NCBI GenBank assembly: GCA_040954595.2
Contig: CM082597.2
Coordinates: forward strand, 2,776,265 to 2,840,264
DNA from: Balanoglossus misakiensis
Lineage: Eukaryota > Animalia > Hemichordata
DNA length: 64,000 nucleotides
Reading direction: 5' to 3'
The notes below the pieces were generated by a model. It was given only the letters and a program-made list of their open reading frames with translations. It was not told where the DNA came from and ran no database searches. Numbering within the stretch: the stretch's first letter is position 1; each line of letters begins with the position of its first letter. The translations under genes and the position numbers were made by a program. Below, piece after piece: positions 3,001 through 60,325 of the stretch.

Positions 3001-6000
3001 TGTGTTACTTTTCCCAGACCCTCCAAACCCACCACAGATCTCCAGCTCGGGTTACCGCCCCGGCGAGTTCGCCAAAGCCCGGGACCTCCTCCGAATGGTC
3101 TGCGCGTCGTCAGGCGGAAACCCCCTGGCAACGCTTCAGTGGACCAAAAATGGGGAACTTCGAGACGATGCCATTTACGACACCAGCGGCAACCTGGCCA
3201 CCAGCGAGCTGAGCATCATCACAGATCAGACGGACAACGGAGCGGTGTATACCTGCAGTGCCAGTAATCCAGCCACCACAACACCATTAACCACGAATGT
3301 AACTCTGTCTGTACATTGTAAGTATTAAGTACAGTCAAAACTGTCTATAGTGGCCAGTCATGCGACTTTCCGAAACTGGCCGTTATAGACAGGTGGTCTT
3401 TATAGACAGGTCAATTAATACATGTGTAAGTTACACAGGGACTGTAACATAGTGGCCACTATATAGAGGTGGTCACTAACACAGGTTTGACTGTATTATT
3501 GAATCTATTGCCCTAGTAATTTTAAGTATATCCTTATTTATTATATTGCATTAAACCATAATTTCTCATATTTTCTCTACAGTGAGTTGTTCTGTTCTCA
3601 AAATCGTATTAAAAATGCTAGCTGAGCTTAATTAATCTTCTTTCCATTACAGTTGTACCAACACATGTGCAGTTGGCCATTATACCCGAAACCTCCAGAG
3701 AAGACGACAAAGTCACCATAGAGTGCAAAACATCCAGCAGTAATCCAGCGTCTGTGATCTCGTGGTTCAGAGGAGGTGTTTTGCTTGATGGTTATGGTAA
3801 GCAGTGTAAAATTCATGTGCATTTAACGCTTTCACTCCCAGTTCCCTATTTAGAAGTCCAGCTTCACCATAGAAAACAGTGGGTTTGGACTGAACCATGG
3901 CGGTGAAAGGGTGAAGGCATTATCTTTTGAAATGCATTTGTGCATGAGCATTATATTACAGTGTCCTGGTTTTAAATTTAAATCACTAGATGTAATTTTT
4001 AATCTTCCCAATTAGTGAGAGCAAAGTACCCTTTATTCAATGATACTGTTGATAAAACACCAATTTCTTTTTGGTATTGCTTGTCAGGTGTTACGAACAC
4101 CTCAATCATAGACGCTGAAAATGGTGGATTCTCTACAATTGGTCATCTGAGTCTGGACCATGTTTCTGCGGCGGATGATGGGGAGACTTTTCTGTGCAGG
4201 GCCACCAATGAAGAACTCTCTGAGAGTACTAATGATGCTGTCACTCTGAGTGTTCAGTGTAAGTCTATTGGAAGAATGTCACTATACTATTGATTGATTG
4301 GTTGATTGATTGATTGATTGATTGATTGATTCGTTGATTGATTGATTGGTTGGTTGGTTGGTTGGTTGATTGATTGGTTGGTTGGGTGGTTGATTGATTG
4401 ACTGATTGATTGATTGATTGATTGATTGAGTGAGTGAGTGAGTGAGTGAGTGAGTGAGTGAGTGAGTGAGAAGAATGAGTCTGAGAGTACTAATGATGCT
4501 GTCACTCTGAGTGTTCAGTGTAAGTCTATTGGAAGAATGTCACTATACTATTGATTGATTGGTTGATTGATTGATTGATTGATTGATTCGTTGATTGATT
4601 CGTTGATTGATTGATTGGTTGGTTGGTTGGTTGGTTGATTGATTGGTTGGTTGGTTGGGTGGTTGATTGATTGACTGATTGATTGATTGATTGAGTGAGT
4701 GAGTGAGTGAGTGAGTGAGTGAGTGAGTGAGTGAGTGAGTGAGAAGAATGAGTCTGAGAGTACTAATGATGCTGTCACTCTGAGTGTTCAGTGTAAGTCT
4801 ATTGGAAGAATGTCACTATACTATTGATTGATTGGTTGATTGATTGATTGATTGATTGATTCGTTGATTGATTCGTTGATTGATTGATTGGTTGGTTGGT
4901 TGGTTGGTTGATTGATTGGTTGGTTGGGTGGTTGATTGATTGACTGATTGATTGATTGATTGATTGATTGAGTGAGTGAGTGAGTGAGTGAGTGAGTGAG
5001 TGAGTGAGAAGAATGAGTCTGAGAGTACTAATGATGCTGTCACTCTGAGTGTTCAGTGTAAGTCTATTGGAAGAATGTCACTATACTATTGATTGATTGG
5101 TTGATTGATTGATTGATTGATTGATTCGTTGATTGATTCGTTGATTGATTGATTGGTTGGTTGGTTGGTTGGTTGATTGATTGGTTGGTTGGGTGGTTGA
5201 TTGATTGACTGATTGATTGATTGATTGATTGAGTGAGTGAGTGAGTGAGTGAGTGAGTGAGTGAGTGAGTGAGTGAGTGAGTGAGTGAGTTGGGCTAGCT
5301 ATGATTGATTGGTTGATTGATTTATTGACTCATTGATTGATTGGTGAGTGAGTGAGTGAGTGGATGTATTGTATAAAATATAATCCATGGTTGAATCATA
5401 TTTATCTGGCAGATCCCCCTGTATTCCTGACCACGGACAACCAAACGCTGGACTCCCACGAGAAAATCGGCGACTTCCTCATCGACATCAAGCTGCGTGC
5501 CAATCCCAGCGATGTGACCTACGTGTGGCACAAAGATGGCAAACCCATCGACATTGCTCTCCACGACAAGTTCAGCGTCCCAGAAAACGGGTCGTTGATT
5601 ATTCACAACGTGACGAAGAACGAGGCCGGCAAGTACAGGTGCGAAGCCAGCAATGCTGAGGGGAAACGGACCTTGTTCACGGACTTGAATGTCTGGTGTA
5701 AGTTGCTGTTACTCAGTTTATCACAATTCCTGCATTACATACCGTACATGTAGTACACACATAGTTTTCGATGGTTTTCTACTGAATTGCTCATTGTTCA
5801 TATAACTACACTGTGGAAATATGAAATTACCAATGTACAACTTAATTCTGACAAAATGGATCGATTTAGTTTTGTCATGACTGGTTGAACTACCTTTGAA
5901 ATGTATCGAGTTATCGCATTGCATATTACTCACTGTCTCGCATACTGTACAAATACTGAAGTATAAGGTTATGTGATAGAATGCCATATAGTTATGCCAA

Positions 6001-10446: not shown

Positions 10447-11205
10447 GATTCAAACTCTGACCTACCATTCTAATTCACATGCACTCTCCCTCTTCTGTCT
10501 TGAGCTAATCCTTGAAACATCCATGCACGTCGGGTAAACAGCCAACGCCCAAACCGTGCTCTGTACGCACAAGTGATAATCTGCAATATATTTGTTGCCA
10601 CCATTTTATTATTGACGATTGCAAGAGGTAGCACCACTTTGGAAAGTTTTATAAATATCTGTAAGTTCTGCTTATCAAGTATTGACTTCATTTTTTCTAC
10701 TGGTTATAGAAATTGCTTATATAGAAATATCTTAAAATATGTTCTAAAAAGTAAAATTGAAAATAAAAAAAAAAAAAAAACGTAATGTAATTTGGTATAC
10801 TTGTCTTTTTATTGTTAATGTTTAATAGTAAAATTACAATGATCTGGTATAAACGAAAACATTTTACACTAGAAATTAAAGAATTTTTAAATCAAACTGT
10901 TCAAAGAAAATTCAGCATGCCATCTTCTTACCATTGTACAAAGAAAAAAAATAATAAACCAAATAAAAATTAATTGTAGGTTTTTAAAGCTTTTCTAGAA
11001 ATAAAAGTTCATTTTTTTTCTATATGTTTGATTTCTTCTTAGCATGTGTGTGTACATTGCATGTGTGTGTTAAAGTTGAGAGACTGGTTGGCCAGCTTAC
11101 ATCATATGTCTAATTCACTCCCAGTGGCTCATGAAGCCAAAAAGTTTGTGTCATAGCTATGTGTCCATAGTCCATATCAAATAGTGATAAACACAGCAGT
11201 ACTAT

Positions 11206-13814
11206 CTATCTCAAATACACACCTAGCCTATCCCTCAGCGCTTGTCTGAACTGTATCTGGAGCTCTGTTGCCATGGTTTTCGACAAGGCTCTGTCAGGCG
11301 ACACATACACCATGCGATAACACCGACTTCTGCTTCCAGTTTTGGGGTGAAGGTACTGGTCCTTCAGGAAGACGTCCACCACCTGGTGATGGCAGATTTC
11401 TCGGAGCACAGAAAAGAAGTCGGATTCCTGCAGACGCGGTAAGTCCGGGCTCTCCCACAGGCTAATATCATGTGTGTACATAGGTGGGTACATACTGAAA
11501 GATTCTAGAGTTATCTCACAGTTTTTCAAGAAGGAAAAATCTGGCAAGACCTCACTGACTTCACTCTTGAACTTGTTCCAGCCTCTGTCATCACAGCTCC
11601 AAAGTAAACGTATGTCCGTGAAGTTGAAAGTTAACATGGCCAATGCATCTAAATAAAAATTTGCGAAAATAATTCCTCTATCTGCGAAGTTCAAGTTTCC
11701 AAAATTCCCAACACATCTCGTTTCACTGTTCTTGGTGATTTTTATACTGGTCCCTGAAGGTTTATCATCGACTAACTGCCACGGCTCATAGTTGCTGGTT
11801 ACATCTTCTGTGAAATCATCAAATTCAATTTCTATACCACTGCCTAGTAAGCTATGCAGTGACTGGATGATGCCAGCCTTGACAATGCTTTGTTCTGAAT
11901 TCTTTGCGATTAACAAGAGATGGTGCTTTATTGGGAAGTTGGCTGGTTTGATTGTGCAGTGCGAAAACACTTGGCCCCAGGTGACACAGAATGGCGAGTC
12001 TTTCATTTTCACTGCAGCTGGGGCATGTACTAACAGGTCAGTTCTCAGACTATACACTTGTGTAGAATCACTCTTGTCACAAGTGTGGAAGGAACCGCTG
12101 TCTGTTGCTTGATCTGGTACAGTGTCACTGGTGTTAATGCTGGAATCATTGTAGACATCCGTACACAACTTCTCGAAAGTGTCAACGATAGAATCTCCCC
12201 TTGCATCACAAGCCCTATGTGTACCCTTGGTGGACACACTTCCTGTGTTTGTCTCAATATCTGTCTCATTACAATCCACCCCTCCATCCCTTCCACTGAT
12301 CTGACCATCTAGGCGATATGCATTGACGTTACCACAGTCTTCAACTACCAAACTAAATCTATCAGGCGCCAACACACTCACACTGCTATATGTTGAAGTC
12401 AGCTCTTTCATCAATCCATCTTTCATAATCTGTACTGGGTGTAACTCTTCAGTAAAGAGATCCCTGCAAGAGATGAAAAAAATAAACATGAATTTAACAG
12501 TATTTCTTCGGTATATCATGCACCCAAAGCTAGGATGAACACTCATATTCCTTGCCATCCAACGTACTACAGCATAAATTTAGATTATCACCATGTTTAG
12601 TAGTAAGCAAGAATTGATATGATTATGAGTCGTTACCTATCAATGAACTCTGCAAGACTAGGTGGGCACTGAAACACCATGTTCTCCCCTTTGATGACAG
12701 CATTCATGTCTTTGATATCAGCAGGCTTCATTGGTATTTGAAGACTTCTCACAAACACATGAATGATTCCACCTTTTGTGAAAAATGGCTTGTCTTGACT
12801 CCTATAAGATGGCAGAAAACATCTGGTTAGCAGTGTCTTTTACATGACCAGTACATTGGTAAATATAACGTGGTCATTTCCAGTTGAGGGGGGGGGGGTT
12901 ACAAATACTGACCTAAACCCGGTACAGGTGTACTCTGGGTAATTTGCTGGGTCAAAGGTGACAGTCTGGGATAGGATGAGATCTGCATGCGCCGCCATAG
13001 CAACCACTTGCCAACTGTTTCCCCATTCTCTCTGCGGTTTATCGGCTGGGGTTCCACCTTGACCTCCGCACAGTGTAATGTGAATTTCACCGTCTGTGTC
13101 AAGGAACGCTGAACAGCTGTGATTGAAAGAGAATTCAAATGGTCATGTCTTCTGCCAAGGCATGTTATTTTTATCTACTTATAAACAAAATAGGTTGCAA
13201 AATACATCTACAAAAGTATGTGTAAGGTACATGTAGCATAGGGTTCAAATGACCATGAAAAATGCATCATAAAACAAAGCGTCAGGCCGTTGTCCTTGGC
13301 AACCAAACTGCACACTTTCAACAAAGACAGTACTTACCTCTGAAAAAGAGCTTTCAACAGTTTTCTGTTCTGTCCAACACTTGCCTTCCCACCCACATGA
13401 GGGAAATTGAAAATGATGTATGCAAATTGGTGACCTGTCAACCCTGCACTGTCAGCCAATCGGGTTGCGTCAACGCTGTACAAGACAGTAACACCTGGAA
13501 AATAACGTCCAATAGATGTTGTTAAAATACAGGGGAAGAGTTGAGGCTGGTTTGGATATATACATGAATAGAATAATCAAGAGGTTGATTGAAATTTCAC
13601 CATTATAATTACCTTTACTTTGTAGGTCAGCGACATTGTCAGAGGCGTTTCCATGTTTCCGCAGAGTTTCTTGGGACTCGAAAGTGGTTGCTATGACAGC
13701 AGAGGGATTATTTACATATCGGAGAAGCGACCTTGTGAATGAAAAGTCACCTTCACCCAACATCAAAATTTTACCAAATTTTGAATAATAAATCGGTTCA
13801 TTGAGAGCAGTCAT
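11206..13814 (-). CDS. FDXACB1: Ferredoxin-fold anticodon-binding domain-containing protein 1 (N-terminal BMT5/DUF2431 methyltransferase-like domain, PheRS-like region, C-terminal FDX-ACB)
   Basis: Exons (minus): 13814-13613, 13494-13338, 13116-12913, 12801-12637, 12463-11206. Motifs ILMLGEGDFSF, VDATRL, IFNFPHVGGK, LCGGQGGTPADKPQREWGNSWQVVAMAA, TGFRSQDKPF, SMYPPMYTHDISLW, HPKTGSRSRCYRMVY, LRDRLGVYLR*. Confidence 0.92.
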
Positions 13815-13877
13815 GTCTGCAATAAATGTTCGTATTCTCGTTTCAGGATAAAATAACAGAGTCAAATGGCGACAGAG

Positions 13878-13883
13878 TTTATT
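13878..13883 (-). terminator. AATAAA polyadenylation signal, probably for ANAPC13
   Basis: TTTATT on + strand, 40 nt past the ANAPC13 stop and about 65 nt before the FDXACB1 ATG. Confidence 0.6.
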
Positions 13884-13922
13884 GTTGGACCTGGTCACTT
13901 CCGGGTTGAACTCGAAAACGGA

Positions 13923-14147
13923 TCAGGCCTGCGCTGAGGGATGGTTTTCCTGCAATGTTTGAAGAGCCAGATCCACCCACTTTTCTTCCTGTTCTCTGAC
14001 CGACTCGGTGTTGCTCTCGTTGTCTTGGTCGATTTCTGGCAATTCCAGCTGCGGAACGGCAATGTCGTCGTTCGGCAACTTGTCCTGTCGCCACTTGTCG
14101 TCTATCAAATCCAACAGTCGCCCGTCTCTGGTGATTTCAGAATCCAT
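13923..14147 (-). CDS. ANAPC13: Anaphase-promoting complex subunit 13 (single coding exon, 74 aa)
   Basis: MDSEITRDGRLLDLIDDKWRQDKLPNDDIAVPQLELPE...EQEEKWVDLALQTL matches the conserved Apc13 sequence and length. Confidence 0.95.
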   Translation of the reverse strand: MDSEITRDGRLLDLIDDKWRQDKLPNDDIAVPQLELPEIDQDNESNTESVREQEEKWVDLALQTLQENHPSAQA

Positions 14148-14529
14148 TTTCCCTGCGCTGGGATGCCAGTGTTAATTGTTTTATGCAAAATTATCACCGA
14201 AGATATAATTACCGTTGTTCTCCCACAGTAGTACGACGTTATATCTGTAAATAATCAGCAATTTGGGGTATTTTTCAAGTTCCTCACGTGAGCATGTGCG
14301 TTCCAGCTGGTGTTGAGCAGAGTGTAAAGGTCAAGACAGTGCCCTCTAACTTGATAAATTTTAACATTTATTACTAAAAATACTAAATACTGACGTACTA
14401 TGCTATAAATTGGCAACTTTTGAACACAAACTGGATAATTGATATTATGATAACACAGTCGACCTCTTATATTGTGATATTATGCCAGAAAACAGCAATA
14501 AACGAAGGAATTGTTTCAATTGTAGACCA

Positions 14530-14640
14530 CTTAGCTCACCTACCACTTATAGTCGCGCGAGAACTTACGTGAATATGTCCCCAAAAGTTAGCCGATGAAA
14601 CCCGGAAAGCGGTCTCTTTAGCCTTGTAGACCACAGTAAG
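14530..14640. promoter_or_regulatory. Compact bidirectional promoter for RPS19 (+) and ANAPC13/FDXACB1 (-)
   Basis: TCT/TOP-like initiator GTCTCTTTAGCC at about 14612-14623, followed by a short non-coding exon with donor CA|GTAAGT at 14636; ETS-like CCGGAA at about 14602; minus-strand donors GTAAGT (14568) and GTGAGC (14539); YY1-like AAGATGGC at about 14840 in RPS19 intron 1. Confidence 0.6.
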
Positions 14641-15082
14641 TGCTGTATTGTGACAGAGTCTCTCTCAGATTTATCAAATATTGCCCACTTTTCGGATGAG
14701 GGCAGGGGAAAATCAAGAATTTCCTTGATTTAGACATCTCTTTATTTCACCTGAATAAAACTCACGGTCATCAAAGTCGTTTTGAGCGTTGAAAACACAA
14801 TGTTTTGGCGGCCGTGTCACATTTCCCAGTCGTACTTTCAAGATGGCAGCCCCCATGTGTCATTCAGAACCTTGTTGCTGTACAAACTTTATGGCACAAT
14901 TCATACGAATCTACATCATGAGCAGACTTAACTTTAATGGGCCACTGCGAATATACAGTTGTAGATAATGTACAGCCATTAAAATGGAAGATCAACTGTT
15001 ATTCATGGCAGAGATTCAAGTAATAAATACATTATCACCACATACATTGATACATATTTATCTGGCTTTTGTGTTTACATAG

Positions 15083-33683: not shown

Positions 33684-35644
33684 AAAAAACTAACAGCTTG
33701 CCAACTCAGAAAATGAATAGTGGTGATTTTAGTTTGTGAACACATGCTATAGTATAATTATACACTTTAAAGTGTATTGTGAAAAGGAGTTGTGAAACTG
33801 GTATCTCTTTCATATCTAGACGAAAAATGGTTTCCATGTAATCAGGGATTTGTATGAATTGCACAGTATACCGTATGTCCGTCAGTTGCGTCTTATTAGA
33901 TCGATAACATGAACCAACTGGATGTTAAAAATGATGAGTTGTTGCTAATTGTACTATAGCTGATGACGATGCTGTGTGTTTATAAACAGAAAAGTCATGT
34001 GCAGTTCAGACTACCCCCCCCCCCCACCCTAACAAAGATCGAAACTCATAGACTAGGTAGATTATGCTACAGTAGAGTTTGTCTTAGAGCTTTGAATTCT
34101 CTTTCAGTTTGACTGTTATCTTCAGAAAATGTTACTACAATTTGACCAGTCATTGAAACTAAGGTTTTTGTTTATTATTAATGAAGTGGGTTTATTCATT
34201 GATATTAAGTATTCACCATTGTCAATATTTTTGTATCTTTCAATTTTATAACTATTAGTTTCAAGTTCTTTAAAACATTCACATTTTCATTGAATTTTGT
34301 TCGCATTTGCAGTGTACATTTGTGTGCTGGTCAATTAGAAGAATTAGAGTTGTTTTAGTACCAGAGATACAACAATATTTTATGAGCAATGATAGTTTAA
34401 TTTTTTACGGTTCTGGATAATAAAATTCAAATACTGATACGAGCCATGTGACAATGCTAAAGTATGCAATATGTCTGCCATGAAGTATTTGGTAGCCATG
34501 ACTACGAACAGGTAAATAATTAATGTAATATAGTACGTGCAGCTTAATTTCTTTCCAATTAAATTTTCATTTGTAACTTAATTGCACCGTGATCTTTGCT
34601 GTGGTTTATTTCTGTTTAGTTGCAAACAATAATCGAAACAACCCTCCCCCCTCGTTTGACAAGCGTATACACTGCCCCCAAACCAAACTATAGAGACACG
34701 AGGCCATGACGTTTAAACGAAGTAGTTTCTTTCGTTGAACGCTTGCGGTGCGTTTATTGACGTGGGCAGTCCCCGGCCCTGTTTCTAGCGCATGTGTTCC
34801 CATTCAATGCTGTGAAAATGGGGCGACTGGAAAGGTCGACACTGACTCAGCAATTCCTGTATAGCTTTATGAGACCGAAGGTCACATGGTTCAAAGAGCA
34901 TCAACGGTCTTCAGCTTCTCTCACTGAAAGAAACTAGCCGTTTCGTGGGCGGGGTCTGCAATCTATTGGCCAACTCTTTAGCACATGTAAAGGAGAGGTG
35001 ATAGGTTCGCAATAGAACCTAAAAACAAGCAGATCAACGGCTGTTTGTGGTTTGTCCCGTTCATATCCCCGACAACAAGCAGGCGTTTGTACAATCTGAT
35101 TAAAATCAGATGTAGGGTACGGCGACGTCGTCTTGTACGTGCGGTCTTCTCTTGTGATGTACGCGTAAGTAAAAGAAGTCGCCGTGCCCGTAGACCATGC
35201 CGTACCCTACAATTCTGATTTTAAACAGATTGGCTTTTTTATTGATAAGTACAGACTGTCTGATTCAAGTTCAACCAGTCCTGTGATTAAACGTCCATTA
35301 TCATTTGCATTGCTACATGGCGTAGCCGGATTTTTACTAGTTATTACTTGCAGATAACTGGGTTTTGTGCGCAGCGCAGGTACTGCATAACAAAACTGAC
35401 CCGGATAGAAACACAAGTGACGCAGAGATATATGGTCATATCGACCAGGCCTATGTTAAAAAAAATCGAGGTCATATCCACGACGTCACTTGCTATTTGT
35501 TTGGTAAACCAATCACATGGAGGTATGAAGCATTTCCAGACAATCCCCACACAGACGGTTTTTTCGAGCACAGACGCCAAACACAGCAAGTCGTTAAATT
35601 CAGAAATCCGTCTTTAAACCGCACAGAACTCTAGACTGACTACC

Positions 35645-36439
35645 ATGGCCGTGTTCGGGGTTCCCACTTTCTGTCTGATCACAGGGGCTAGCCGCGGCTT
35701 GGGTCGCGGAATCGCCGTGGAAATGGTGGAACACCTCGGGGAGAAGTCTGTGGTCGTGTTGACGGCTCGCGGTGAAGCGGGGCTGAAGGAAACGAAAGCT
35801 CTCATGGAGAAAAGGCGTGGCAAAGGCGTCGATATCCGCGTGGTTCCGTGCGACCTGAGCAAAATCTCCCCCCTGAAGGAGAAAATGTGCATCATGTACG
35901 GCAGTGACGACATGAGCAAGTTCAAGCACGTGATTCTGGTCAACTGCGCCGCATCTGTCGGCGACATCACCAAGCTGATCGCCCAACACGGCAACAACCC
36001 GCCAGACATGCAAGATTACTTCGATTTCAACATCACCGCCGTCATCTGCCTCTTGGCCAAGTTCCTGGAAGTCTGCCCGAAAAGAGCGGGCCAGCGCCGC
36101 TCCGTCATCAACATCAGCTCGGGGGCCGAGCACGACCCTTTCCCGTTCATGTCGCTGTACTGTGCCTCGAAGGCCGCCAAGAACATCCTGTTCAGAGTGC
36201 TGGCCAACGAAGACCCCGACTTGAAGATCCTCAACTATTTCCCGGGCCGCATCGATACCGACATGCACACGTACCTGAGGGAATCTATCGGCGACCCCAA
36301 CATCCGAGCAGTTCTGAAGCAATGGCACGACAACAAAGAGCTGATCACGCCCTTCGAGTCTGCCAAGATGCTGATGAAGATCTTCAAGGAGGATAAATAT
36401 GAAAGCGGAGGAGCCATGAAGTATGAGGACCACTGTTGA
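35645..36439 (+). CDS. SPR: Sepiapterin reductase-like short-chain dehydrogenase/reductase, intronless CDS
   Basis: LITGASRGLGR Rossmann motif, VLTAR, NISSG, catalytic YCASK, NYFPGRIDTDM (SPR: YAPGPLDTDM), C-terminal YESG; 264 aa. Orthology to true SPR is uncertain (see findings). Confidence 0.8.
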   Translation: MAVFGVPTFCLITGASRGLGRGIAVEMVEHLGEKSVVVLTARGEAGLKETKALMEKRRGKGVDIRVVPCDLSKISPLKEKMCIMYGSDDMSKFKHVILVNCAASVGDITKLIAQHGNNPPDMQDYFDFNITAVICLLAKFLEVCPKRAGQRRSVINISSGAEHDPFPFMSLYCASKAAKNILFRVLANEDPDLKILNYFPGRIDTDMHTYLRESIGDPNIRAVLKQWHDNKELITPFESAKMLMKIFKEDKYESGGAMKYEDHC

Positions 36440-43900: not shown

Positions 43901-46900
43901 CCATTGTGGCAGGCTACCAACATTATTTATAGGTTATTCTTCACAGAAACCATTTTAGCAACAACAACAAAAAAAAACAAATTATTTTAGCATAACAATT
44001 TTTCCTCGCGCTTGCGCGTCCGAAGCAAATTCAAATTTATTTTTAGCACACTGAATAATAATGTACATGTATGAAATGTTCCAGCTCATGTTTTCATATA
44101 ACATGATTTTATCAATATTTTTGTACCACAGTAAGAGGCGAGGTGTTGAAGTTCGAACACAACGTCACGGTGGAGGAAGGAAAGAACACAGAACTGAGAT
44201 GCAGAACGAATGGAATAAGTAACTACGGGGCAACCGTCATATACTGGGTCAGATCAACAGATGCCAGAACCATAACATACAGGGATGAGTTGTCCGACAT
44301 CGGCGATGACAAAGAGGAACCGGGCGAGATAGCCAGGTACTCCCTGGATTTGAATACTCCTGATGAATACACTATCAGGATTACAGACGCCAAGGTAATG
44401 GATACTGGGAAATGGGTCTGCACCAGTGACAACTCGGAGGAGGTGTGGCTGACAGTAAGAGGTTAGTTGACTCACTGACTGACTGACTGACTAACTGACT
44501 CACTCAGAAAATCCCATTTCAACACAAATAGGCGTTTACTCTGATTATCATAAGACTTAAAATCCAAAGCTATTATTAATATAATATCTTGGTTTCTTGA
44601 TGTTTTCTATTTCAGTGCCACCTAAGATAATCTACCACACACCCGACATCATCACCCAGAGAAACAAAAGCCACTCACTCATTTGCCGGGCTGAAGGCCA
44701 CCCGCCTCCGGTAATCACCTGGAGCAGATTGGGAAACACTCTTCCCAACGGTGACATCCTGTTCCACGGCCAGGAACTGGAATTGATCAACATGACCAGC
44801 AACGACAGGGGTACATACCACTGCGTCGCCAGCAACACAGTGGGTATAGACTCGGCTGACGTTAATATCGTTATGAGATGTAAGTAGATCAGTCAGAATG
44901 TAAATTCATATTCAATTAGTGAGCTAGATTGAAGATAATTGTTTATATTTACATGGAATAATTGCTGGCAACTGCTACTTTTCTATTTACATACTGCTCC
45001 CTGGCCACCTGTTGTTGGTGAACCGGACAGTTCTTATTAAATATGTTTTACCACTTAATCTGACTGTTTATCAAGACAGAGGTTGTGTATCCTTTGTACA
45101 GATGGATAAAGCTTCCATCTCTTTCGGGACCAAGAAACGTTATCTCAGTCAAAATTTGCTCCAGACATATGATGTCCCATACACTAACCCTGGGCAGTCC
45201 CCTAACCTTTAGTGAGTAGTCAAAGGCTGGTTTTCTTATAGTCTTGATTATCACTTTGAACACAGACAAACCAGAAGTACTCGTCATGAAACCAGAAGTG
45301 AAAGCCTACGTCAACGGCAGAGCAACTCTTGTGTGCGAATATCACGCAAATCCGGAAGTCAGCGAGGTGGTTTGGTACAGAGCTGGACGCCGCATCGAGT
45401 AAGTGGTTGCGAATCAGTAAATTTAAATATATTGAGAACGCGTGTACATGGCCAGACCTGTTGGTGCATTCGTTCCCTTAAAATGATTGCAATAAACGCC
45501 CCTAGCTCAATTTACACCAGGCCCTATCCCAATCAAATGCACAGCTAATGTATCGCATTAATCTTTCAGTGAAGACAGAAAACTGGACGTCAAGATTTTC
45601 ACAAACACGGCTATATCAACCTTGGTGTTCGGCCGGGTGAGGTCAGACCAGTGGGGACAGTACGAGTGTAAAGTACGGAACCCAGAGGGAACAGTCAGCA
45701 AGCTGGTCGAGTTTTCAGGTAATACCTGCTTGCTCCATTTAGTCACATAATAAACTGCATCTCGCTTGCATGAAAGCTACGTTGCTTTCAATGCCCGGCA
45801 CACAACAATAGGCCACATTTATGACCTGTGATTGACCTTACATCTTGGTATCATGATGCTTCGTTGTGCATAGACTTGGTTCGGCCATTTTTCTCGGTTA
45901 TTTCTGCACTGGGCTCTACCTTTGGGTGGGGTATCATTTCTACCTGACACACGGTTTCGCGTGGAGGTTCACTAATCAATAGATAACTTTAAATTTAAAT
46001 GTTTCGATAAAAATGACAGAAAACTGCTACTTACAGTAGAGGATGTGCGCCGACGGGGGCTGCAAGCCAGGAGAAACGAAGCCCTCGATTTTCGCCAAGT
46101 CACTCAGTCTCTCCATAACCGATGGTTTATGTACATTTTCTTAGCGTGAGGCTACCAAAAACTTGGAAAATCCAGTCCATATCGTCACAGTCACCTCCCT
46201 TATTTTCACTTGGTTGTCGGAAATCGCTCCGGGTAATGAATAGGTCGTTGTTGTCACCACTTTCAGCCATTGTGTTTGTCCGTCAAAGATTGAGTTTCAA
46301 ATGATTGAAGTGGCACGTCACTGATCATCTGACAAACTAACTGACTGACAACTGTCCAATCGAAATGTGCCATTCACCAGGTGCATTTTGTGAGGCTTGT
46401 GATTGGTTGATGTGATTGAGAAGTTGTTTAGCATACCCAGATAGCAGATGTTGTCGTAATGCTAGTGAAAAAGTGGCTTATTACATACGGATATATCGTG
46501 CACCTCTATTGTGATGGTAAATGCATGTATCTGACACATTTCCGTGTGCGTTTCTCTTCAGAGGGAAGACCAGAAGCCACGCCCTTATCAGAAAGTAAGT
46601 CTACACATGATGGTTTACATAAACACTACAGTATGTTGTAGAAGCCATATTGATTTTGCGTATGTATTTTCAGTCAGCAAAAGGCAACCAGGTTTCCGAA
46701 TTCGATCAATTTTCATGATGAAAATAAAAGTATACAGAAGTCAATCTATATATTAAAAAACACGAGTAAAGTAACATTTTTATTTTATTTCATTTTTGGA
46801 TGACAAATAGATCCAAACAATCGTGAAGACCCCAATTTAATAGTAACAATTATGCCTCTGCTCAACTTGTGGTGAGATCCCCTAACCGACTGGTTATCTG

Positions 46901-49708: not shown

Positions 49709-52700
49709 TTAGAGTCTGAAGATTGCGGCAACCATGGCTGCTACCATGACAACCAGTGAAGCGGTTGGGGCCGCTGCTGAACTAATTCCTGTAAATAAAT
49801 CATAGAGTGAGAGTCAGTGAAGGAATTCCATCATAGTGTTTAGAAATACACAACTTAGGTGCACCATCTACATCTCCTGCATATTGCTACTTATGATCAG
49901 ATGTACTTACGTTCTGATAATGGAGTGGCTTCGGGTCTACCCTCTGTAAAAGATCATGCATGCAAACATACGTTAAACAATGATTCACTCCTTTCTACCT
50001 CCTTCACATTTACTATAAAAGTTGGCAGGTCTCCCTGAATAGTGTGAACAAAATTGAAGTATCTATAAACGGAAAATTCGTGCATGCGCAGTTCAGGCGA
50101 CTCTCCACTTTAAAGTAGAATTGTTCCTATAAAAAGCTCGACATACCTGTAAACTGAAGCAGTTTACTGACAGTACCCTCTAGGTTCTTTACTCGGCACT
50201 CATACTGCCCCCACTGGTCGGACCTCACTCTAGAAAACTCCAAGCTTGACATAGCCGTGTTTGTGTAAATCTTGACGCGTAGTTTGGTGCTTTCCCTGAA
50301 AGCGAAAAGTGAGCCACATAATTTTTGGAAGTAGTTAACGATTTCGGTTTATTCTTTTGAGGGATTTATGTGTGGATCGCGCGCCACCCAAGTACCAAGT
50401 GAAACCCCTGACCAGGCAAAAACTTGATCTAGTGAATTAGATTGTGAAAAACACGTGACTGAATAAGATGGACCAACTTACGTCACAGGGCGTCCAGCTC
50501 TGAGCCAGATGACTTCACTGACAGCTGGCATGGCATGATACTCGCATACAAGAGTGGCCCTTCCATTGACGTATGCTTTTACTTCGGGTTTGTAGACAAC
50601 AACTTCAGGTTTGTCTGGGGTAAGAAGGGAAAAGATAAGGGTAAATGAGCAAGTCCACCATTTTGGCATGAGGGTTAAATGATAAAGTGTCTATAGCACT
50701 ATATTAGGCCTGTCTCACTACAAAATGGTTCAATCCCTATAGTTCAATGATCCCAAACTACACACTGACGAGACCGGGGGTGCCAACCACTTACAATTCA
50801 TTACGATATCAACATCTACCGAGTCCAAACCCACTGTGTTGCTGGCGACGCAGTGGTATGTCCCCCTGTCGTTGCTGGTCATGTTAACCAATTCCAGTTC
50901 CTGGCCGTGAAACAGGATATCACCGTTGGGAAGAGTGTTTCCTAATCTGCTCCAGGTGATAACCGGAGGCGGGTTGCCTTCAGCCCGGCAAGTGAGTGTG
51001 TGGCTTTTGTTTCTCTGGGTGATGATGTCGGGTGTGTGATAACTGATTCTCGGCGGCACTGAAAATAAAAGAAATTAAAAGTTCACTTATAAGGGAAGAC
51101 TGTTAACCTCGTCATGAACTTGCCACTTCAAAAATTAGTCTTACTGTTTAACCGGCACTGTTTAATTCATGACTGATATTATTAATATTATTAGTTGTTT
51201 TCAAAGGTTCACAGCGGGTGCGGTTCCACAGTGAGTGAGTGAGTGAGTGAGTGAGGGATAGGGTGAGTGATTGAGAGCGGAGTGTGTGTGTGTGTGTGAG
51301 TGAGTGTGTGTGTGTCAGTTAGTCAGTGAGTCAACTAACCTCTTACTGTCAGCCACACCTCCTCCGAGTTGTCACTGGTGCAGACCCATTTCCCAGAATC
51401 CATTTCCTTAGCGTCCATTATCCTGATAGTGTATTCATCCGGGCTATTCAAATCCAAGGAGTACCTGGCTATCTCGCCCGGTTCCTCTTTGTCATCGCCG
51501 ATGTCGGACAACTCATCCTTGTATGATATGGTTCTGGCATCTCTTGATCTGACCCAGTATATGACAGTTGACCCGTAGTTGCTTATTCCATTCGTTCTGC
51601 ATCTCAGTTCTGTGTTCTTTCCTTGCTCCACCGTGACATTGTGATCAAATTTCAAGACCTCGCCTCGTACTGTATAAAAAGAAAACAGCATGTATATTCA
51701 GTAATTTAGACGCCAGAATGCTTTGGACAATATTAAATTTTTTCTCTAATATAGTCAAATCTAATCAACTCTGTCCAATGGGTTTTCGGTTACCCAGACT
51801 ATCTAAAATGGATCGTTTCTGACTCTTACAGTCGATAGTTTGTGGTCCTCGAACTTGAACGACAAATGCGCATGGATGTCAACAGGCTGTTTTTCGAGTG
51901 CCATGTCGTAACTGCCCCTTTCTTTCGCCGTGACCTATTTGAGTTGTATTTGCTTTTGTCCGACTAGACTGTTAGCAATGGACGAGCGAGCTTGTATAGA
52001 AATGCAAAACTGTTCACTGGAATGCGTGTTACGTATGCATGCCGCGGTGGGCACGACAGACTCCCATTGGTAAAAGCTGTAACGAGTAGCCAGTATATTG
52101 TAAACCCACGGATGGTGACCTTTGTTTCAACACAATGCACAGACCACCACACTTTCTCTCTATGATTAAAACACGGCCTCCGTTAATAGCCGTAGAGCGT
52201 GGAGTAGCAGGGCCCACAGGCTGCAGATGGTGACGTCTTTGGCGTTATAGCAAAACGATAACCTCTATACTGAAACATGCAGTTGCCATCTAAGTCTGTC
52301 CCTCAACCCGTCATAAGAATTCACAGCCGAAAGTCCAGTAGTTCAGGAAAACATAGCTGACAATAGAAGTGAAAATAACTCTACAAAGGCCCACTCTTTC
52401 ATGCAAATTAGGCCAATTAACTGGTTTTTCAGTGTAACTGTTTTTACCTTATAGTCTACGAATTCTGAAAAAGACGAAAGCTAAAAAAGACGAGATTAAA
52501 TCTACATGTCATTTTTTGTACCCAGGCTGTCGAGAAATTTGGAAGAAAGGCGTATTTACTGGAGAACCGCCAGGACGAAATGTCAGCAGCCATTTCCGCT
52601 GCCTGGAACTTGACTGGTCATAGAGGCTTGCTTTTTATCGGAACACGCCCATAACTGTCTCCACGTTATCTCTTTATGGAATGGAAGCATTTCTTCTGGA

Positions 52701-55108: not shown

Positions 55109-55972
55109 TCACTTATTATCCAGCTTGTTAAAAATCAACCAAGCAAAGCTGTGTTTAGTTAGTTTTACAAGACCCAGTTTACCGCCAACGGTACGTTCCG
55201 TGCTTGGAAAAATAGTATATGGATGGTGTTCATTTATTTCCATACCTTCCTCAATGATCAGTTTCGCATTCGTTAGAAGATTTAAGTTTTGTTTTCTGTA
55301 CTCCTTTCTTACAAAAGAGTAACCCACGTCGCCAATTTCTTTGTACACTGTCCATGCCACAGGCCTGTTGTACGAGTCATAAGCGACGACACTGTTGCAG
55401 TGCTGCAGTGTGTTTGTGAAGACTGGGATTGGCGTTGAGCTTGAAACACGCCAGGAGTTCCGCAGCATTGGCACGTGTTCTGTGGTCAATTTTGGTCCGA
55501 ATTTCAGACCACTTGGCAGAGCATGTAGCTTTTCTCCTTGAGCCTGTATAAATTCGTACGGGATAGCGAAGAAGTTACAATAATCCTTAAAAGACAATTG
55601 GTATCCTTCACGTAGGCAAACTTCTTCGATTGATGGGGCGAGTTTTTCTGGTACGGCTTCAAACATGAGAGCAGTCTTTTTCCAATCAATTACCCCCTCT
55701 TGAGTCAGAACATATTTTAGCTTGTCATTGTCGCCGGAGTAAATAAAGTATGTTCTATCAAAAGGAGGAGAGTAATACTTCTTGTTTACACACACCATGG
55801 TACTAATATCACCATATGCTTCACTGTCTGTGTAGACCTCCAGGCATGGCCAGACATTCTTGGTCGCGTGACTATTCTTGATCAGATAGTATGCAGGGTT
55901 ACATACCGGTTGCCATGACTTCAAGCGATTGAGTAACTCTGGCATCCTTGCTGCTTGGACAAATCTTGCCAT
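55109..55972 (-). CDS. Glycine N-acyltransferase-like (GLYAT/GLYATL family) protein, intronless CDS
   Basis: 287 aa; N-domain WPCLEVYTDS...YFIYS...GVIDW; C-terminal GNAT region PVAWTVYKEIGDVGYSFVRKEYRKQNL. Confidence 0.75.
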   Translation of the reverse strand: MARFVQAARMPELLNRLKSWQPVCNPAYYLIKNSHATKNVWPCLEVYTDSEAYGDISTMVCVNKKYYSPPFDRTYFIYSGDNDKLKYVLTQEGVIDWKKTALMFEAVPEKLAPSIEEVCLREGYQLSFKDYCNFFAIPYEFIQAQGEKLHALPSGLKFGPKLTTEHVPMLRNSWRVSSSTPIPVFTNTLQHCNSVVAYDSYNRPVAWTVYKEIGDVGYSFVRKEYRKQNLNLLTNAKLIIEEGMEINEHHPYTIFPSTERTVGGKLGLVKLTKHSFAWLIFNKLDNK

Positions 55973-56273
55973 GGTATTACGTTTGGAATAGCCTAAGGGT
56001 GCGTTCTGTCACAACTGGTGTCGATATCACATTTGTTTGCAACACTTTCAATTTTATACTAAAAAAAGAACTGACAAAAATTAACGGAGGAGAGTATTAT
56101 TTATGGGGTGTCATTATTCGCGCAAGCGTTTTGAAGCGACGCGAAAGTTTAGCAGGGGCACAATTTTGACAGACTAAACATGCGAATAAATGTATTTTAC
56201 TAAACAACAAACATTTTGACTGAGAATGTACAAATCTAAATCTATATGGCTGTAGTAGAGCATACATTTTCCT

Positions 56274-56339
56274 TTAACCCTTTAACCATCATGGTTTGAT
56301 CCAATCCTATTGTTTTATACCTAGGGAAATGGGGGTTAA
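56274..56339 (-). mobile_element. Internally deleted piggyBac-type MITE copy
   Basis: TTAACCCTTTAACCATCATGGTTTGATCCAATCC...GGGGGTTAA. Confidence 0.55.
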
Positions 56340-57649
56340 GAATTGATAGTGTTTCAGAATGCCAATTAACCTTCCTTTGTTCTGTGCTCTACAACATACT
56401 GTTTGCTGCAATATATCTTAGTCATTTTGAACTTTGTTTAATCGAATTCTAACGTTATGCTTGTGGTATTAACATCTCTTTCTGAATACGAATCGTCGCT
56501 TACACGTACATTCATTTCTTAAAATACTAGTTTATTTAGTATAACCTCTGTTATGAGCTACGAAACAATCAAACCATATTTGGAGAGCGTGGGTGTTAAC
56601 ATATTTAATAGAGTTTAACATTTCATGAAGTGGTATTTTTAACACGGTGACTACAGGCATATGTGAGCTAACATGAGTCAAGGTAACCTGTATACCAATA
56701 TTTACCCCAAGGTAAAACGTAAAATGACAACGAAGACTTTAGTTGGTTTGTGAGGGTGCTGTTAAAACTATAGTCTACGCGCTACCACCTGACGACCAGC
56801 AACTATTTTGCTTCACTAAAAATTCTTGTTTCCTTTATTCTCACACATTGATCGATTTTATCTGTCTAACTTTAACATGTTGCTGGTTTAAATATTTGAA
56901 TAAAATAACGGCACCAAGGGCATATTGCTCACCAATGATTTTGACATCAACAGAAAAGTCTAGCGCCCTCACACAGCAATCATGAATTAGAACTCGGTCA
57001 CAATCGAACTCGGCCATAGTGCAGTGACCCGAGTAGCGACCCGAGTAGCTGCCGGTGACGTCATCCCATTCTAGTTAGCATGCGCATAAGCGTAACCGGG
57101 GAGATTTCAAACGAACGATACAAGTGTATATAGTGTAGCAACCCATGTAAACAAATATGGCGACTGAGTTTGAAGATTTCTTGGTTTTGCGTAACAATAT
57201 GGAACAGGTGACCAAGCACATCAAGGGTGTTTCCGCATTAGCCGAAATTGAGTTCAAAATCCATGATGGCTGCTTGAGGGCGCAAGGCTCATGAAATGGG
57301 TGTACTCCTAAACACAACAAATTCACTAAAATGAAACGGATGTCAATGAGATTAAGAAATTAAACATCAGAGTGATGCAATACGCAGCTCAAAGGATCAG
57401 AAAATCAAGTCTACTATTAGACACTATCGCCAAATGCCAATAGAAAACAGACAAATATTTAAGAGATGTTCAATTACAAAGAAGGTAATCTGCAACGCTG
57501 CCAGTACTGTCCCTTCAATTCACAGACACATCAACTTCAAAACCCATTTTCGTTAATCAAGTCAGTACATGTACATATAGCTAAAAAATCCTACATCTAA
57601 ATGGAATTTTTTATCAACAATTCTTGTTATCAGACAATTCAAAGTGCCA

Positions 57650-59323
57650 TTACTTGCGTCCCTCAGAAAGGCCAACTATCGCAATCTTTGTCAGTTCACG
57701 TCGGTTTACTTTATTTGAAACTGTTATGGGAATTGTCTTGAAGAACATCACATAATCTGGGATGCGACGAGTATGTACGCGACCATGACAATATTTCATG
57801 ACGTCATCTTCTGTACAAGATTGATTTTCTCGTCTGATAATGCAGATGCACAGACGCTGATATACCTCCTCGTCTGGTATAGGCACCACTGCAACTTCTG
57901 CCACGTTTGGGTGTCGAGCAATAACCTCTTCTATCTCCCCTGGGTAAATATTCACAGATCCCCGAATTATCATATCATCCACCCGGCCTAATATCTTGCA
58001 CCATCCATCTTCATTCATTTCAGCGAGATCGCCACTACGATGCCAGCCGTCTGGTAGGTTTGTTTCTTCGGTTTTCTTCTTGTCGCCTAGGTAGTACAAA
58101 AACAGGAATGGGGAACGCACCCACAACTCCCCTGCTTCATTGCGAGGAACAATTCTCCCCTCCGTATCAACCACCTTAATTTCATAACCCGGCGAAGCAT
58201 ACAAACCATACGGGTACTTGCGCATCAATTCCATACTCAAGCCAGGCGCACGAGAAGACATTGCATCACTCGTTTCAGTTGAACCATAATTATTTACAAC
58301 AGTGCACTTCAGGACAGAAGACACCGCCTTCGCCAGATCTTCTCTTAGTATGCTTCCAGCTATATAGATGATCTTCAAACTTGGGAATTTGTAATCATGT
58401 ATATTGGGATGATTAATCATGTCCGCTAGGACATTTTGAAACGTTAAACTGTGTGTTATTCCCTCATCTTGGAGTACTTGCAGGTAGGTCTCAGTTGACT
58501 GTCGTGATGGTAACATAACGCTAGTCGAGCCGAAGACCATGGGTAAAGTCAGAGCTCTTAAGGCTTGTGCGTAGGCAACACAGGCAACAAATAATTCTTT
58601 TACATTTGAAGAATCTTCACAGTAGGTTGCCATTACAGAATTTAACTCAGTGTGATGTGTATGTACAGCACACTTAGGAAAACCTGTGCTGCCAGATGTA
58701 AAATATATTGACAGAACATCATCGCTACCAACTTGACGTTGTCTGGCTTCCACGTCTCCATGCGATGCCTGCCCCATGCTTAGTAGCTGCTGGAATCCAA
58801 ATGTGCCTTGTTTTGGTTCCCCATCTATCTGTACTACAGCATGCAATGCTGGAAACCTATGATGGTGAATTCTTCCAGGATGAAACCGATCGAGCTCGGG
58901 GAGGAAGTCAGCAATTTCGGAGGGTAGGTGGTCAGATGTACCATCTATAAGGATTCTACATTCTGTCCGGTAGATGAGTTTTTCCATTGCTTCTGATGTC
59001 AGACCCACATCAAAGCGAGCAACTCTTGCTCCGACTTTAGCAGCAGCATAAAACGACAGAATCCATTCCAGACGTGTTCCGGCCCAGATACCAATACAGT
59101 CGCCGATTTCAACGCCAAGATGCAGAAACGCTGAAGCCAACGTATCGACTTGTTGCCTTAATTTACTGAAGGTGATTCGCGTTCCATCTAGTGGGAAGAC
59201 GAAAGCTTCTTTGTTTGGAAAGAGAACAGCATTGCGATCTATGCAATCACCAAACGTGTCCCCCATGAACTTTTCTGTTGCTGGATTGTGGACATAGCTC
59301 CGGGTGAAAGTCTTCGACGACAT
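57650..59323 (-). CDS. ACSF2-like acyl-CoA synthetase (ANL adenylating enzyme), copy 1, intronless CDS
   Basis: Likely start MSSKTFTRSYVH after an acceptor at 59338-59339; motifs YFTSGSTGFPK, NNYGSTE, GELWVRS, WHRSGDL, GRVDDMIIRG..NIYP.EIE, SNKVNR; the N-terminus resembles ACSF2. Confidence 0.88.
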   Translation of the reverse strand: MSSKTFTRSYVHNPATEKFMGDTFGDCIDRNAVLFPNKEAFVFPLDGTRITFSKLRQQVDTLASAFLHLGVEIGDCIGIWAGTRLEWILSFYAAAKVGARVARFDVGLTSEAMEKLIYRTECRILIDGTSDHLPSEIADFLPELDRFHPGRIHHHRFPALHAVVQIDGEPKQGTFGFQQLLSMGQASHGDVEARQRQVGSDDVLSIYFTSGSTGFPKCAVHTHHTELNSVMATYCEDSSNVKELFVACVAYAQALRALTLPMVFGSTSVMLPSRQSTETYLQVLQDEGITHSLTFQNVLADMINHPNIHDYKFPSLKIIYIAGSILREDLAKAVSSVLKCTVVNNYGSTETSDAMSSRAPGLSMELMRKYPYGLYASPGYEIKVVDTEGRIVPRNEAGELWVRSPFLFLYYLGDKKKTEETNLPDGWHRSGDLAEMNEDGWCKILGRVDDMIIRGSVNIYPGEIEEVIARHPNVAEVAVVPIPDEEVYQRLCICIIRRENQSCTEDDVMKYCHGRVHTRRIPDYVMFFKTIPITVSNKVNRRELTKIAIVGLSEGRK

Positions 59324-60325
59324 CTTCAAGAACCAGTCTTTATAAATAAAAAACATACGTTGATTGTGAAGAAAGACTTTGGGTTATATTGTTTGGACTT
59401 TTGTTAGAGATAAAACAATATCACACATTTAAATCAGGAACGATAAATTTCCATCTTCTAGAAAAAGTACATTGTTTAAATTTCACCAATGCTATTTGTG
59501 TCCACAACATTACCGCATATTTATCATTTACATACTATAGCAATAAGGTAATGGCCTATTTCACCGATAAGCTTTACTTGTTAAAGAAATGCAACATGAT
59601 GGCTTTACAATTCATTCCGTTCAGTGAAGCACAGACTTCAGGCGGCTATGGAAAATTCCCCCTTCATGTCAGTAAGCTTGTGTCCTTGAAGAGTTTGACA
59701 TTAACTCGTTCAGACAATGTTTACTTTAGAATGTGAACTCTTGAACCTTCTTACTACTAAACGTTTGCCCATTTTGCTATTTCATCCGCCCCTCCAACAA
59801 ACAGACTACCCTACCCGTTAAGCCCTTTCCGCTGATTTTAGTTAACCGAGGTGGGGAAATCCTAAGCTGTCTGCCACACCTTAGAAGACCGTCAGTTATT
59901 ACAACTCTGGAACTATGAAAACCATGTAACATACCTGATATTTAGATAACTTGTAGAGTCACCGTAGATGTCAAGAAAGCAGCTGTTTTTTTAGTGGACG
60001 AGTTTGGAATGCAAACAATAAACCCTGGGTGAACTCTTTTCAAGATTACGCAAAAGTCACCAAACGTGACAAAATACCATGATGCAGCACAAACGCTGTA
60101 AGTGGGCACGTACGCATGCTCAGCATTTGACGCTTACATTGAATCAACAAAATATACAACTTCTATCCGCTATCAATTAAACCATAGCTTCAAACCCTGT
60201 CTGTTATAAATTCAGGTCTAGTCAGTATACCTTAATAACTAAGAAAATATACATCTACAATAATTTCTTTTCAAATATGAAGCTTCGCCCTCTTTAATCT
60301 TGTCAGACGAATCTCTGATGCGATA

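What the first reader, a model, noticed from the sequence alone, without database searches (positions are those of the whole stretch)
13810..14640. ANAPC13 appears nested in the 5' leader of FDXACB1: one promoter, two unrelated proteins
Seen on the minus strand: ANAPC13 stop (13923), then AATAAA (13883-13878), then a clean acceptor CATTTATTGCAG|ACATG 2 nt before the FDXACB1 ATG (13814). Only 108 nt separate the ORFs, leaving almost no room for a separate promoter and leader exon. Upstream are candidate donors at 14568 (GTAAGT) and 14539 (GTGAGC), a strong acceptor GCTGATTATTTACAG at 14245, and an internal donor CG|GTAATT at 14212. Inference: a shared non-coding exon either continues into ANAPC13 and is polyadenylated, or splices over the whole ANAPC13 ORF into FDXACB1, making a splicing-versus-polyadenylation switch. 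Alternatives are an operon resolved by spliced-leader trans-splicing (the polyA-signal-then-acceptor geometry resembles nematode operons), a bicistronic mRNA, or a small internal promoter at the ETS site CCGGAAGTG (about 13896-13904).
Basis: partly seen in the sequence, partly recalled or inferred. Interest (0 to 1): 0.8.

Follow-up and report, generated by a model that had tools for sequence, protein, structure and literature searches.

The report
APC13 parked in front of FDXACB1
In a genome that is likely an acorn worm's, the tiny cell-division gene ANAPC13 sits 108 bases in front of an unrelated enzyme gene with no other start codon between them, so the two likely share one messenger RNA as the fruit-fly APC13 gene does with its own neighbour, though no RNA data could be obtained to show it.

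Summary
The anatomy is real. An intronless ANAPC13 ORF (14147-13923, minus) ends 108 nt before the FDXACB1 start (13814), a start matched in Ptychodera flava. AATAAA lies in the gap, and RPS19 starts head-to-head upstream. No RNA run or genome was available, so the transcript form is untested.

Three signals coexist:
(1) No ATG in any frame in the 330 nt between the two starts (5th longest of 2,735 inter-ATG gaps; shuffles P=0.001). This fits a bicistronic mRNA.
(2) An acceptor 2 nt before the FDXACB1 ATG, excellent over its last 10 nt but poor over 25.
(3) An ETS site plus a YY1-like core in the gap. This fits a small internal promoter.

I favour read-through to a bicistronic mRNA, with a short ANAPC13 mRNA ended at the AATAAA (0.5). 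Skip-splicing and an own promoter as main source get about 0.22 each; trans-splicing is unlikely.

The arrangement is a known kind: FlyBase lists fly APC13 (CG33981) as dicistronic with fab1 (88 nt apart); Apc11/lmgB and plant CDC26/TTM3 are similar. New here: a deuterostome case, and APC13 gene models abutting yet other partners (ZFAND1, UTP23).

The parts
14614..14635 (+). Predicted non-coding first exon of RPS19, starting in a TCT-type initiator (motif definition recalled), donor at 14636; head-to-head with ANAPC13
   Evidence: donor 9.4 bits; RPS19 exons Pfam Ribosomal_S19e; RPS19 ATG 15083 directly after an acceptor
14553..14607 (.). Predicted shared bidirectional core promoter: ETS-type core at 14602-14607 and a near-palindromic CGCG element at 14553-14562 (ZBTB33/BANP-like, recalled)
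   Evidence: CpG o/e 1.05 at 14530-14650 against a window median of 0.65
14563..14568 (-). Candidate donor of the minus-strand first exon (alternatives 14543, 14539). It lies only 46 nt from the predicted RPS19 start, so the minus-strand start site is uncertain
   Evidence: 9.6 bits, above 12 of 23 true donors
14213..14244 (-). Candidate 32-nt non-coding exon, or the start of the ANAPC13 exon; acceptor 14245, donor 14212
   Evidence: acceptor above 12-17 of 23; donor above 5 of 23
14153..14212 (-). Possible 60-nt GT-AG intron ending 5 nt before the ANAPC13 ATG; shorter than all 21 introns measured in the window (minimum 104 nt)
   Evidence: acceptor 14153 above 5-11 of 23; 4 of 4 distinct animal-type APC13 loci have an acceptor shortly before the ATG
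13923..14147 (-). ANAPC13 coding sequence, 74 aa, intronless, no internal Met, no out-of-frame ATG; start context has A at -3 and G at +4
13815..13922 (-). 108-nt spacer between the ORFs: no ATG, in frame with both ORFs and free of stops
13896..13904 (-). ETS/GABP-type site, candidate internal promoter element
13878..13883 (-). AATAAA, predicted ANAPC13 polyadenylation signal, 40 nt after the stop
13864..13871 (+). YY1-like core (imperfect match to a recalled consensus)
   Evidence: 4 such 8-mers in the window
13848..13858 (-). U-rich stretch placed like the downstream element of a polyA site
   Evidence: read from the sequence; not scored
13817..13828 (-). Candidate acceptor ending 2 nt before the FDXACB1 ATG; short pyrimidine tract
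11206..13814 (-). FDXACB1 coding exons 13814-13613, 13494-13338, 13116-12913, 12801-12637, 12463-11206; 661 aa; BMT5-like methyltransferase and FDX-ACB domains

Best explanation
ANAPC13 and FDXACB1 lie 108 bases apart on one strand with no other ATG between their starts, and they likely form one transcription unit: a predicted promoter shared head-to-head with RPS19 would make an RNA that either ends at the AATAAA after ANAPC13 or reads through as a two-gene message. FDXACB1 would be translated from the long form by ribosomes that skip the ANAPC13 start or restart after its stop, and the purge of ATGs would keep that path clear. The choice at the polyA site would set how much FDXACB1 is made. 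A short FDXACB1-only RNA from the ETS/YY1-like element in the gap may be made as well, as at fly lemming. Shown: both ORFs, the spacing, the motifs, the ATG-free stretch. Inferred: promoter position, polyA use, read-through, and translation of the second ORF.
For: Zero ATG in any frame in 14144-13815. It is the 5th longest of 2,735 inter-ATG gaps on both strands, one of the longer being a microsatellite. Dinucleotide shuffles give mean 5.2, P0=0.001; the opposite strand has 5; 3 of 1,977 overlapping CpG-rich 330-mers are ATG-free. All 7 codon junctions inside the ORF that could create an out-of-frame ATG avoid it. Four distinct animal-type APC13 loci without a near FDXACB1 carry 4-9 ATGs in the ORF. 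FDXACB1 exon 1, at similar CpG level, has 6 ATGs in 201 nt including its start. Lack of AUGs before ORF2 is a reported mark of leaky-scanning bicistronic mRNAs (PMC11291117 passages, which also cite Wall et al. 2005 for fly). Family precedent: CG33981/fab1 is 'all di/polycistronic', 88 nt apart (PMC4528330 supplement), and CG33981 is an Apc13p homolog (PMC6373952 supplement). lmgA (Apc11)/lmgB are 92 nt apart, with a 3' end in the gap, an internal 5' end and a dicistronic mRNA (PMC3372440 passages). Plant CDC26/TTM3 is similar (PMC7943633 passage).
Against: The ANAPC13 start has A at -3 and G at +4, a strong context, which argues against much leaky scanning (one search reports weak ORF1 contexts). 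With GC3-rich codon usage the chance of no out-of-frame ATG is 0.11, and shuffling the gene's own codons gives 0.34 (0.0025 only with window-wide usage). 31 of 90 homologs also lack internal Met. The second-longest ATG-free run (14734-14368) is just upstream and covers predicted intron, so local CpG retention may explain part of the signal. The model does not need the acceptor at 13817 or the ETS site. At lemming, the second ORF's protein was not detected. The long mRNA would have a stop far upstream of four exon junctions, a likely NMD target (inference).
Confidence: 0.5

Rival explanations
1. One reading: a shared non-coding leader (donor 14568, 14539 or 14212) is spliced over the whole ANAPC13 ORF to 13816, so ANAPC13 is an alternative terminal exon inside FDXACB1's first intron and splicing competes with polyadenylation. 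A sharper version: the 32-nt exon's donor (14212) is only 60 nt from the acceptor before the ANAPC13 ATG (14153), perhaps too close to join it, so including that exon would force the jump to FDXACB1.
For: The last 10 nt of the 13817 acceptor outscore 22 of 23 true acceptors, and only 7 of 2,729 ATGs have one as good within 10 nt. Donors 14568 and 14212 lie in the range of true donors. 60 nt is below all 21 introns measured (minimum 104). [quoted passage not shown]
Against: Over 25 nt the acceptor beats only 3 of 23, and it has fewer pyrimidines than any of the 23. 998 of 3,186 random 108-nt stretches hold an AG as good under the 14-nt model. The model does not predict the ATG-free stretch or the ETS/YY1-like pair. 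The matrices rest on 23 sites each.
Confidence: 0.22
2. Two independent, tightly packed genes: FDXACB1 has its own compact promoter in the gap (ETS site, then a YY1-like core near the start) and a short unspliced leader that overlaps the ANAPC13 3' end; ANAPC13 always ends at the AATAAA.
For: CCGGAAGTG in the 108 nt is expected 0.0003-0.0005 times, and a YY1-like core lies 25 nt on. CCGGAAGT occurs 4 times in the window against 0.75 in shuffles. Spacer CpG o/e is 1.31. An ETS core and a YY1-type site also mark RPS19. Lemming has such an internal 5' end 107 nt before ORF2.
Against: Of the other 3 CCGGAAGT sites, 2 appear to lie in coding exons, so the motif also occurs away from promoters. The motif test is post hoc. 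The model explains neither the ATG-free ANAPC13 ORF nor the acceptor. Binding-site roles are recalled from vertebrates.
Confidence: 0.22
3. Stop-codon read-through: the TGA is sometimes read through and the open 36-codon spacer joins APC13 to FDXACB1 in one 772-aa protein.
For: The spacer is in frame and stop-free; chance is about 1/3 x 0.12-0.19. Fly CG33981 has an annotated 32-aa read-through isoform.
Against: The base after TGA is T, not the C of known leaky contexts (recalled). The fold around the stop is no better than shuffles (z=0.58). No Apc13p plus BMT5 protein among 21 long hits scanned from the 150 listed of 284, and none of 39 longer candidates scored.
Confidence: 0.03
4. Nematode-type operon: cleavage at the AATAAA, then a spliced leader is added in trans at 13816.
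For: The polyA signal sits about 60 nt before an acceptor next to the ATG; chaetognath operons have this geometry (PMC2481426 passage).
Against: The nearest named homologs are acorn worms. Two paper searches gave no report of spliced leaders in hemichordates (the library is incomplete). Cis donors are available upstream.
Confidence: 0.03

Closest known systems
Drosophila CG33981 (Apc13p homolog)/fab1 dicistronic locus (PMC4528330 supplementary tables; PMC6373952 supplement)
   Same: The same small APC/C subunit, paired on one strand with an unrelated large gene, 88 nt apart there and 108 nt here; a read-through extension is annotated there and the spacer is open here.
   Different: Different partner and phylum. 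The fly locus is annotated with no monocistronic form, whereas here an AATAAA follows the stop. The fly transcripts are curated; none was seen here.
Drosophila lemming lmgA (Apc11)/lmgB (PMC3372440)
   Same: Small APC/C subunit first, gap of about 90-110 nt, a 3' end inside the gap, a possible internal start and a two-ORF mRNA, all at one locus.
   Different: lmg is intronless, lmgB is dispensable and its protein was not detected, and lmgA has three in-frame AUGs. Here ORF2 is a conserved five-exon enzyme gene and ORF1 has none.
Plant and green-algal CDC26/TTM3 bicistronic mRNA (as described in PMC7943633 and PMC11291117)
   Same: A small APC/C subunit as upstream ORF of an unrelated enzyme, with a likely link to NMD.
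   Different: Conserved across a kingdom and shown by experiment; the pair here was not found in any other genome I could read.
Genes sharing a promoter and 5' non-coding exons (130 fly genes, e.g. Ip259/RpS27A; PMC4528330)
   Different: No junction was observed, and the acceptor's tract is short.

Membership tests
Bicistronic mRNA with a small APC/C subunit as ORF1 | ORF1 is an intact small APC/C subunit | tested here: met
   Pfam Apc13p, 74 aa; Atlas first hit APC13 at 0.95
Bicistronic mRNA with a small APC/C subunit as ORF1 | Unrelated intact ORF2 on the same strand at a short distance (fly obligate loci -34 to 319 nt) | tested here: met
   108 nt; 661-aa FDXACB1
Bicistronic mRNA with a small APC/C subunit as ORF1 | One mature mRNA holds both ORFs | not testable with these tools
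   no RNA holder listed
Leaky-scanning bicistronic mRNA | Few AUGs before ORF2 | tested here: met
   0 in 330 nt; partly confounded by CpG retention
Leaky-scanning bicistronic mRNA | Weak start context at ORF1 | tested here: not met
   A at -3, G at +4; judged by the general consensus, with no species matrix
Genes sharing 5' non-coding exons | Usable acceptor before ORF2 and donors upstream of ORF1 | tested here: inconclusive
   acceptor above 22, 11 or 3 of 23 by window length
Genes sharing 5' non-coding exons | Observed junction skipping ORF1 | not testable with these tools
Independent tandem gene with internal promoter | Promoter motifs and unmethylated-type CpG content in the gap | tested here: inconclusive
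   ETS 9-mer, YY1-like core, CpG o/e 1.31; motifs alone do not show a start site
SL trans-spliced operon | Spliced-leader RNA in the lineage and a non-genomic leader on the mRNA | not testable with these tools
   no genome, no RNA; no Rfam match in the window says little
Retrogene nested in a host intron | Loss of introns that the parent gene has, with a parent copy elsewhere | tested here: inconclusive
   ORF intronless, but so are 4 of 4 distinct animal-type loci; many other hits break after residue 33 or begin near residue 20; no genome in which to seek a parent

The most novel reading that the evidence does not exclude
APC13 is repeatedly and independently parked as the first ORF of a transcription unit with an unrelated gene: fab1 in fly, ZFAND1 in beetles and a termite, UTP23 in a butterfly, and FDXACB1 in this acorn worm. 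Here one roughly 100-nt promoter would drive RPS19 one way and ANAPC13 plus FDXACB1 the other, with polyA choice, a sterically forced skip over ANAPC13 and ATG-free scanning setting the ratio. That would make small APC/C subunits (APC13, APC11, CDC26) a recurrent class of upstream cistrons that now reaches deuterostomes.
Probability: 0.3. Interest if true: 0.6.

Novelty: new member of a known kind. Interest (0 to 1): 0.4.

Why it matters
Two-gene mRNAs and shared leaders are common in flies (350 and 130 genes), and three small APC/C subunits already sit in such units, so the kind is known. A deuterostome case with a new partner would show that the habit recurs across lineages rather than being an insect or plant oddity, and would pose a testable question: does a 74-codon gene need a longer neighbour for stable mRNA or polysome loading, as reported for CDC26/TTM3? 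It also warns that gene callers can hide or fuse APC13, as the insect gene models suggest.

Tried and rejected
RNA evidence: no RNA holder listed, so no reads were laid. No whole genome is held.

Conservation of the gene order could not be tested in acorn worms. None of the 44 matched FDXACB1, RPS19, ZFAND1 or UTP23. Only 5 of them (4 distinct) are full-length animal-type hits, with 1.1-10 kb downstream, and their taxon is not known. A scan of prokaryotic genome contigs with FDXACB1 exon 3 found nothing.

Fused APC13-FDXACB1 protein: none among 21 long hits scanned or 39 longer candidates; weak evidence.

Recent retrocopy: considered because the ORF is intronless. Not supported, since 4 of 4 distinct animal-type loci are intronless too; not excluded.

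N-terminal extension of FDXACB1 through the open spacer: the P. flava and Glandiceps models start at or next to the same place.

Structured RNA in the spacer: z=0.58; no Rfam match in the window.

Literature: ANAPC13 with FDXACB1 gave one unrelated clinical paper. Other searches for this pair, for APC13 in operons or with fab1, and for trans-splicing in hemichordates gave nothing relevant. PMC7986045 held none of my terms, and PMC2276209 did not name CG33981. Earlier-findings look-ups by place, by the gene pair and by sequence were empty. File 1 of the PMC4528330 supplements could not be searched.
Full report
What is there. On the minus strand an intronless 74-codon ORF (14147-13923) is ANAPC13 (Pfam Apc13p; Atlas). 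Exactly 108 nt after its TGA, ATG 13814 opens a five-exon, 661-aa FDXACB1 with BMT5-like and FDX-ACB domains. The nearest named homologs are acorn worms: Ptychodera flava 84% and Glandiceps talaboti 78% over exon 3. The P. flava protein aligns from residue 1 at 61% identity, so the start is right and the genome is likely an enteropneust's. RPS19 lies head-to-head on the plus strand, with a predicted 22-nt first exon at 14614-14635 and its ATG at 15083.

What could not be had. No RNA run was listed and no genome is held. All statements on transcripts below are inference from sequence and from other species.

Splice signals. I trained simple matrices on 23 acceptors and 23 donors of the window's own genes: a nephrin-like gene, RPS19 and FDXACB1. 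Only the four FDXACB1 introns were checked against homologs; the rest were placed by eye from reading frames. The acceptor at 13817 is excellent over its last 10 nt (above 22 of 23 left-out true sites), average over 14-18 nt (11 and 10 of 23) and poor over 25 nt (3 of 23). It has 8 pyrimidines at -20..-4 against 9-15 in true sites. Random ATGs have an equal AG within 10 nt in 7, 112, 155 or 488 of 2,729 cases for the four window lengths. It is therefore more than chance by some measures but not clean. Donor 14568 is typical, 14212 lowish and 14539 weak. Donor 14568 is only 46 nt from the predicted RPS19 start, so where the minus-strand RNA begins is open. A second acceptor, 14153, lies 5 nt before the ANAPC13 ATG, as in 4 of 4 distinct animal-type APC13 loci, where an acceptor lies shortly before the ATG. 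It would close a 60-nt intron from 14212, shorter than all 21 introns measured (minimum 104).

Between the two start codons there is no ATG in any frame for 330 nt. This is the 5th longest of 2,735 inter-ATG gaps in the window. Dinucleotide shuffles give 5.2 on average and none in 0.1% of 5,000; the other strand has 5; 3 of 1,977 CpG-rich 330-mers lack ATG. The four animal-type APC13 ORFs without a near FDXACB1 hold 4-9 ATGs. Against this: GC3-rich codon usage alone gives no out-of-frame ATG 11% of the time, and the gene's own codons shuffled 34%. 31 of 90 homologs lack internal Met. The second-longest ATG-free run is just upstream and includes predicted intron, so local CpG retention may contribute. 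The ANAPC13 start context is strong. The spacer is also in frame and stop-free (chance about 4-6%), with no special fold.

Promoter-like motifs in the gap. CCGGAAGTG at 13904-13896 is expected 0.0003-0.0005 times per 108 nt. A YY1-like core follows at 13871-13864, and spacer CpG o/e is 1.31. The 8-mer occurs 4 times in the window against 0.75 in shuffles, but two of the other three sites appear to be in coding exons. The roles of ETS, YY1, TCT and ZBTB33-type motifs are recalled from vertebrate promoters and come from no call.

Other genomes. None matched FDXACB1 or RPS19, but only 4 distinct ones are full-length animal-type hits, with 1.1-10 kb downstream, so conservation in acorn worms is untested. 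Of the 150 listed (of 284) protein hits, 21 longer ones were scanned. Two beetle models join Apc13p to ZFAND1-type domains (Molorchus KAJ8975932.1, Lamprigera KAF5281806.1) and a butterfly RefSeq isoform joins it to UTP23 (Maniola XP_069364737.1). A walrus model joins it to an ERMAP-like protein, which I take as a gene-calling fusion. None joins it to BMT5. A termite model also carries Apc13p with an AN1 finger (PMC6373952 supplement rows). Such models show same-strand adjacency in an annotation, not a two-ORF mRNA.

What is known. FlyBase lists CG33981/fab1 as all di/polycistronic, unrelated, 88 nt apart, with a 32-aa read-through isoform of CG33981 (PMC4528330 supplement rows). That CG33981 is the Apc13p homolog comes from the termite tables, and a shared RNAi stock name agrees with the pairing (PMC9242647 passage). 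The tables do not state the order of the two genes; that CG33981 is first is inferred from the read-through overlap. Fly lemming has Apc11 as ORF1, a 92-nt gap, a 3' end 56 nt after the stop, an internal 5' end 107 nt before ORF2 and a dicistronic mRNA, though ORF2 protein was not detected (PMC3372440 passages). Plant CDC26/TTM3 is bicistronic (PMC7943633 passage; PMC11291117 passages; the original papers by Lorenzo-Orts 2019 and Wall 2005 were seen only as cited there). In fly, 350 genes share transcripts and 130 share promoter and 5' non-coding exons (PMC4528330 passages). Spliced leaders have a patchy distribution (PMC3342872 passage), and I found no report for hemichordates. I found no paper on the ANAPC13-FDXACB1 pair; the library lacks most subscription journals.

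Weighing. Each of three models explains one signal and leaves two. The bicistronic model explains the ATG purge and has the strongest family precedent, and at lemming it coexists with a polyA site and an internal start in the gap, which would also absorb the AATAAA and the ETS/YY1-like pair. I put it at 0.5, with or without a minor internal start. Skip-splicing as the main source of FDXACB1 gets 0.22, an independent promoter alone 0.22, read-through fusion 0.03 and trans-splicing 0.03. These figures are judgement, not computation.

Verdict. A real, tightly packed gene pair and a likely new member of a known kind. Interest 0.4, rising to about 0.6 if the recurrent use of APC13 as an upstream cistron holds across animals.

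Noticed in passing
proteins P0071, P0146, P0134: Gene models fuse Apc13p to ZFAND1-type domains in two beetles and to UTP23 in a butterfly RefSeq isoform; a termite model does the same with an AN1 finger. APC13 seems to abut different unrelated genes in different insect groups.
   Followed up: partly
window 14553-14850: RPS19 has a vertebrate-style promoter layout: TCT-type start, 22-nt non-coding exon, ETS core just upstream and a YY1-type site at 14840 in intron 1 (motif names recalled).
   Followed up: partly
window 4220-5330: The 3' end of a nephrin-like exon, its donor and microsatellite-rich intron are repeated about four times head to tail: a tandem duplication of a splice donor, or an assembly artefact.
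   Followed up: no
window 55109-62071 and 35618-36439: Long single-exon ORFs: two tandem acyl-CoA-synthetase-like genes and an acyltransferase-like gene on minus, and a sepiapterin-reductase-like gene on plus (names recognised from sequence, not scanned).
   Followed up: no
window 44107-44466 and 51335-51697: Two near-identical immunoglobulin-domain exons, suggesting a duplicated gene or segment.
   Followed up: no
window 10990-11205: No AATAAA in the roughly 215 nt read after the FDXACB1 stop; its 3' end faces that of the nephrin-like gene.
   Followed up: no
proteins P0174, P0180, P0186 and others: Mammalian gene models fuse the FDXACB1 N-terminal domain to ALG9, so FDXACB1 is tied to a different neighbour in mammals.
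   Followed up: no
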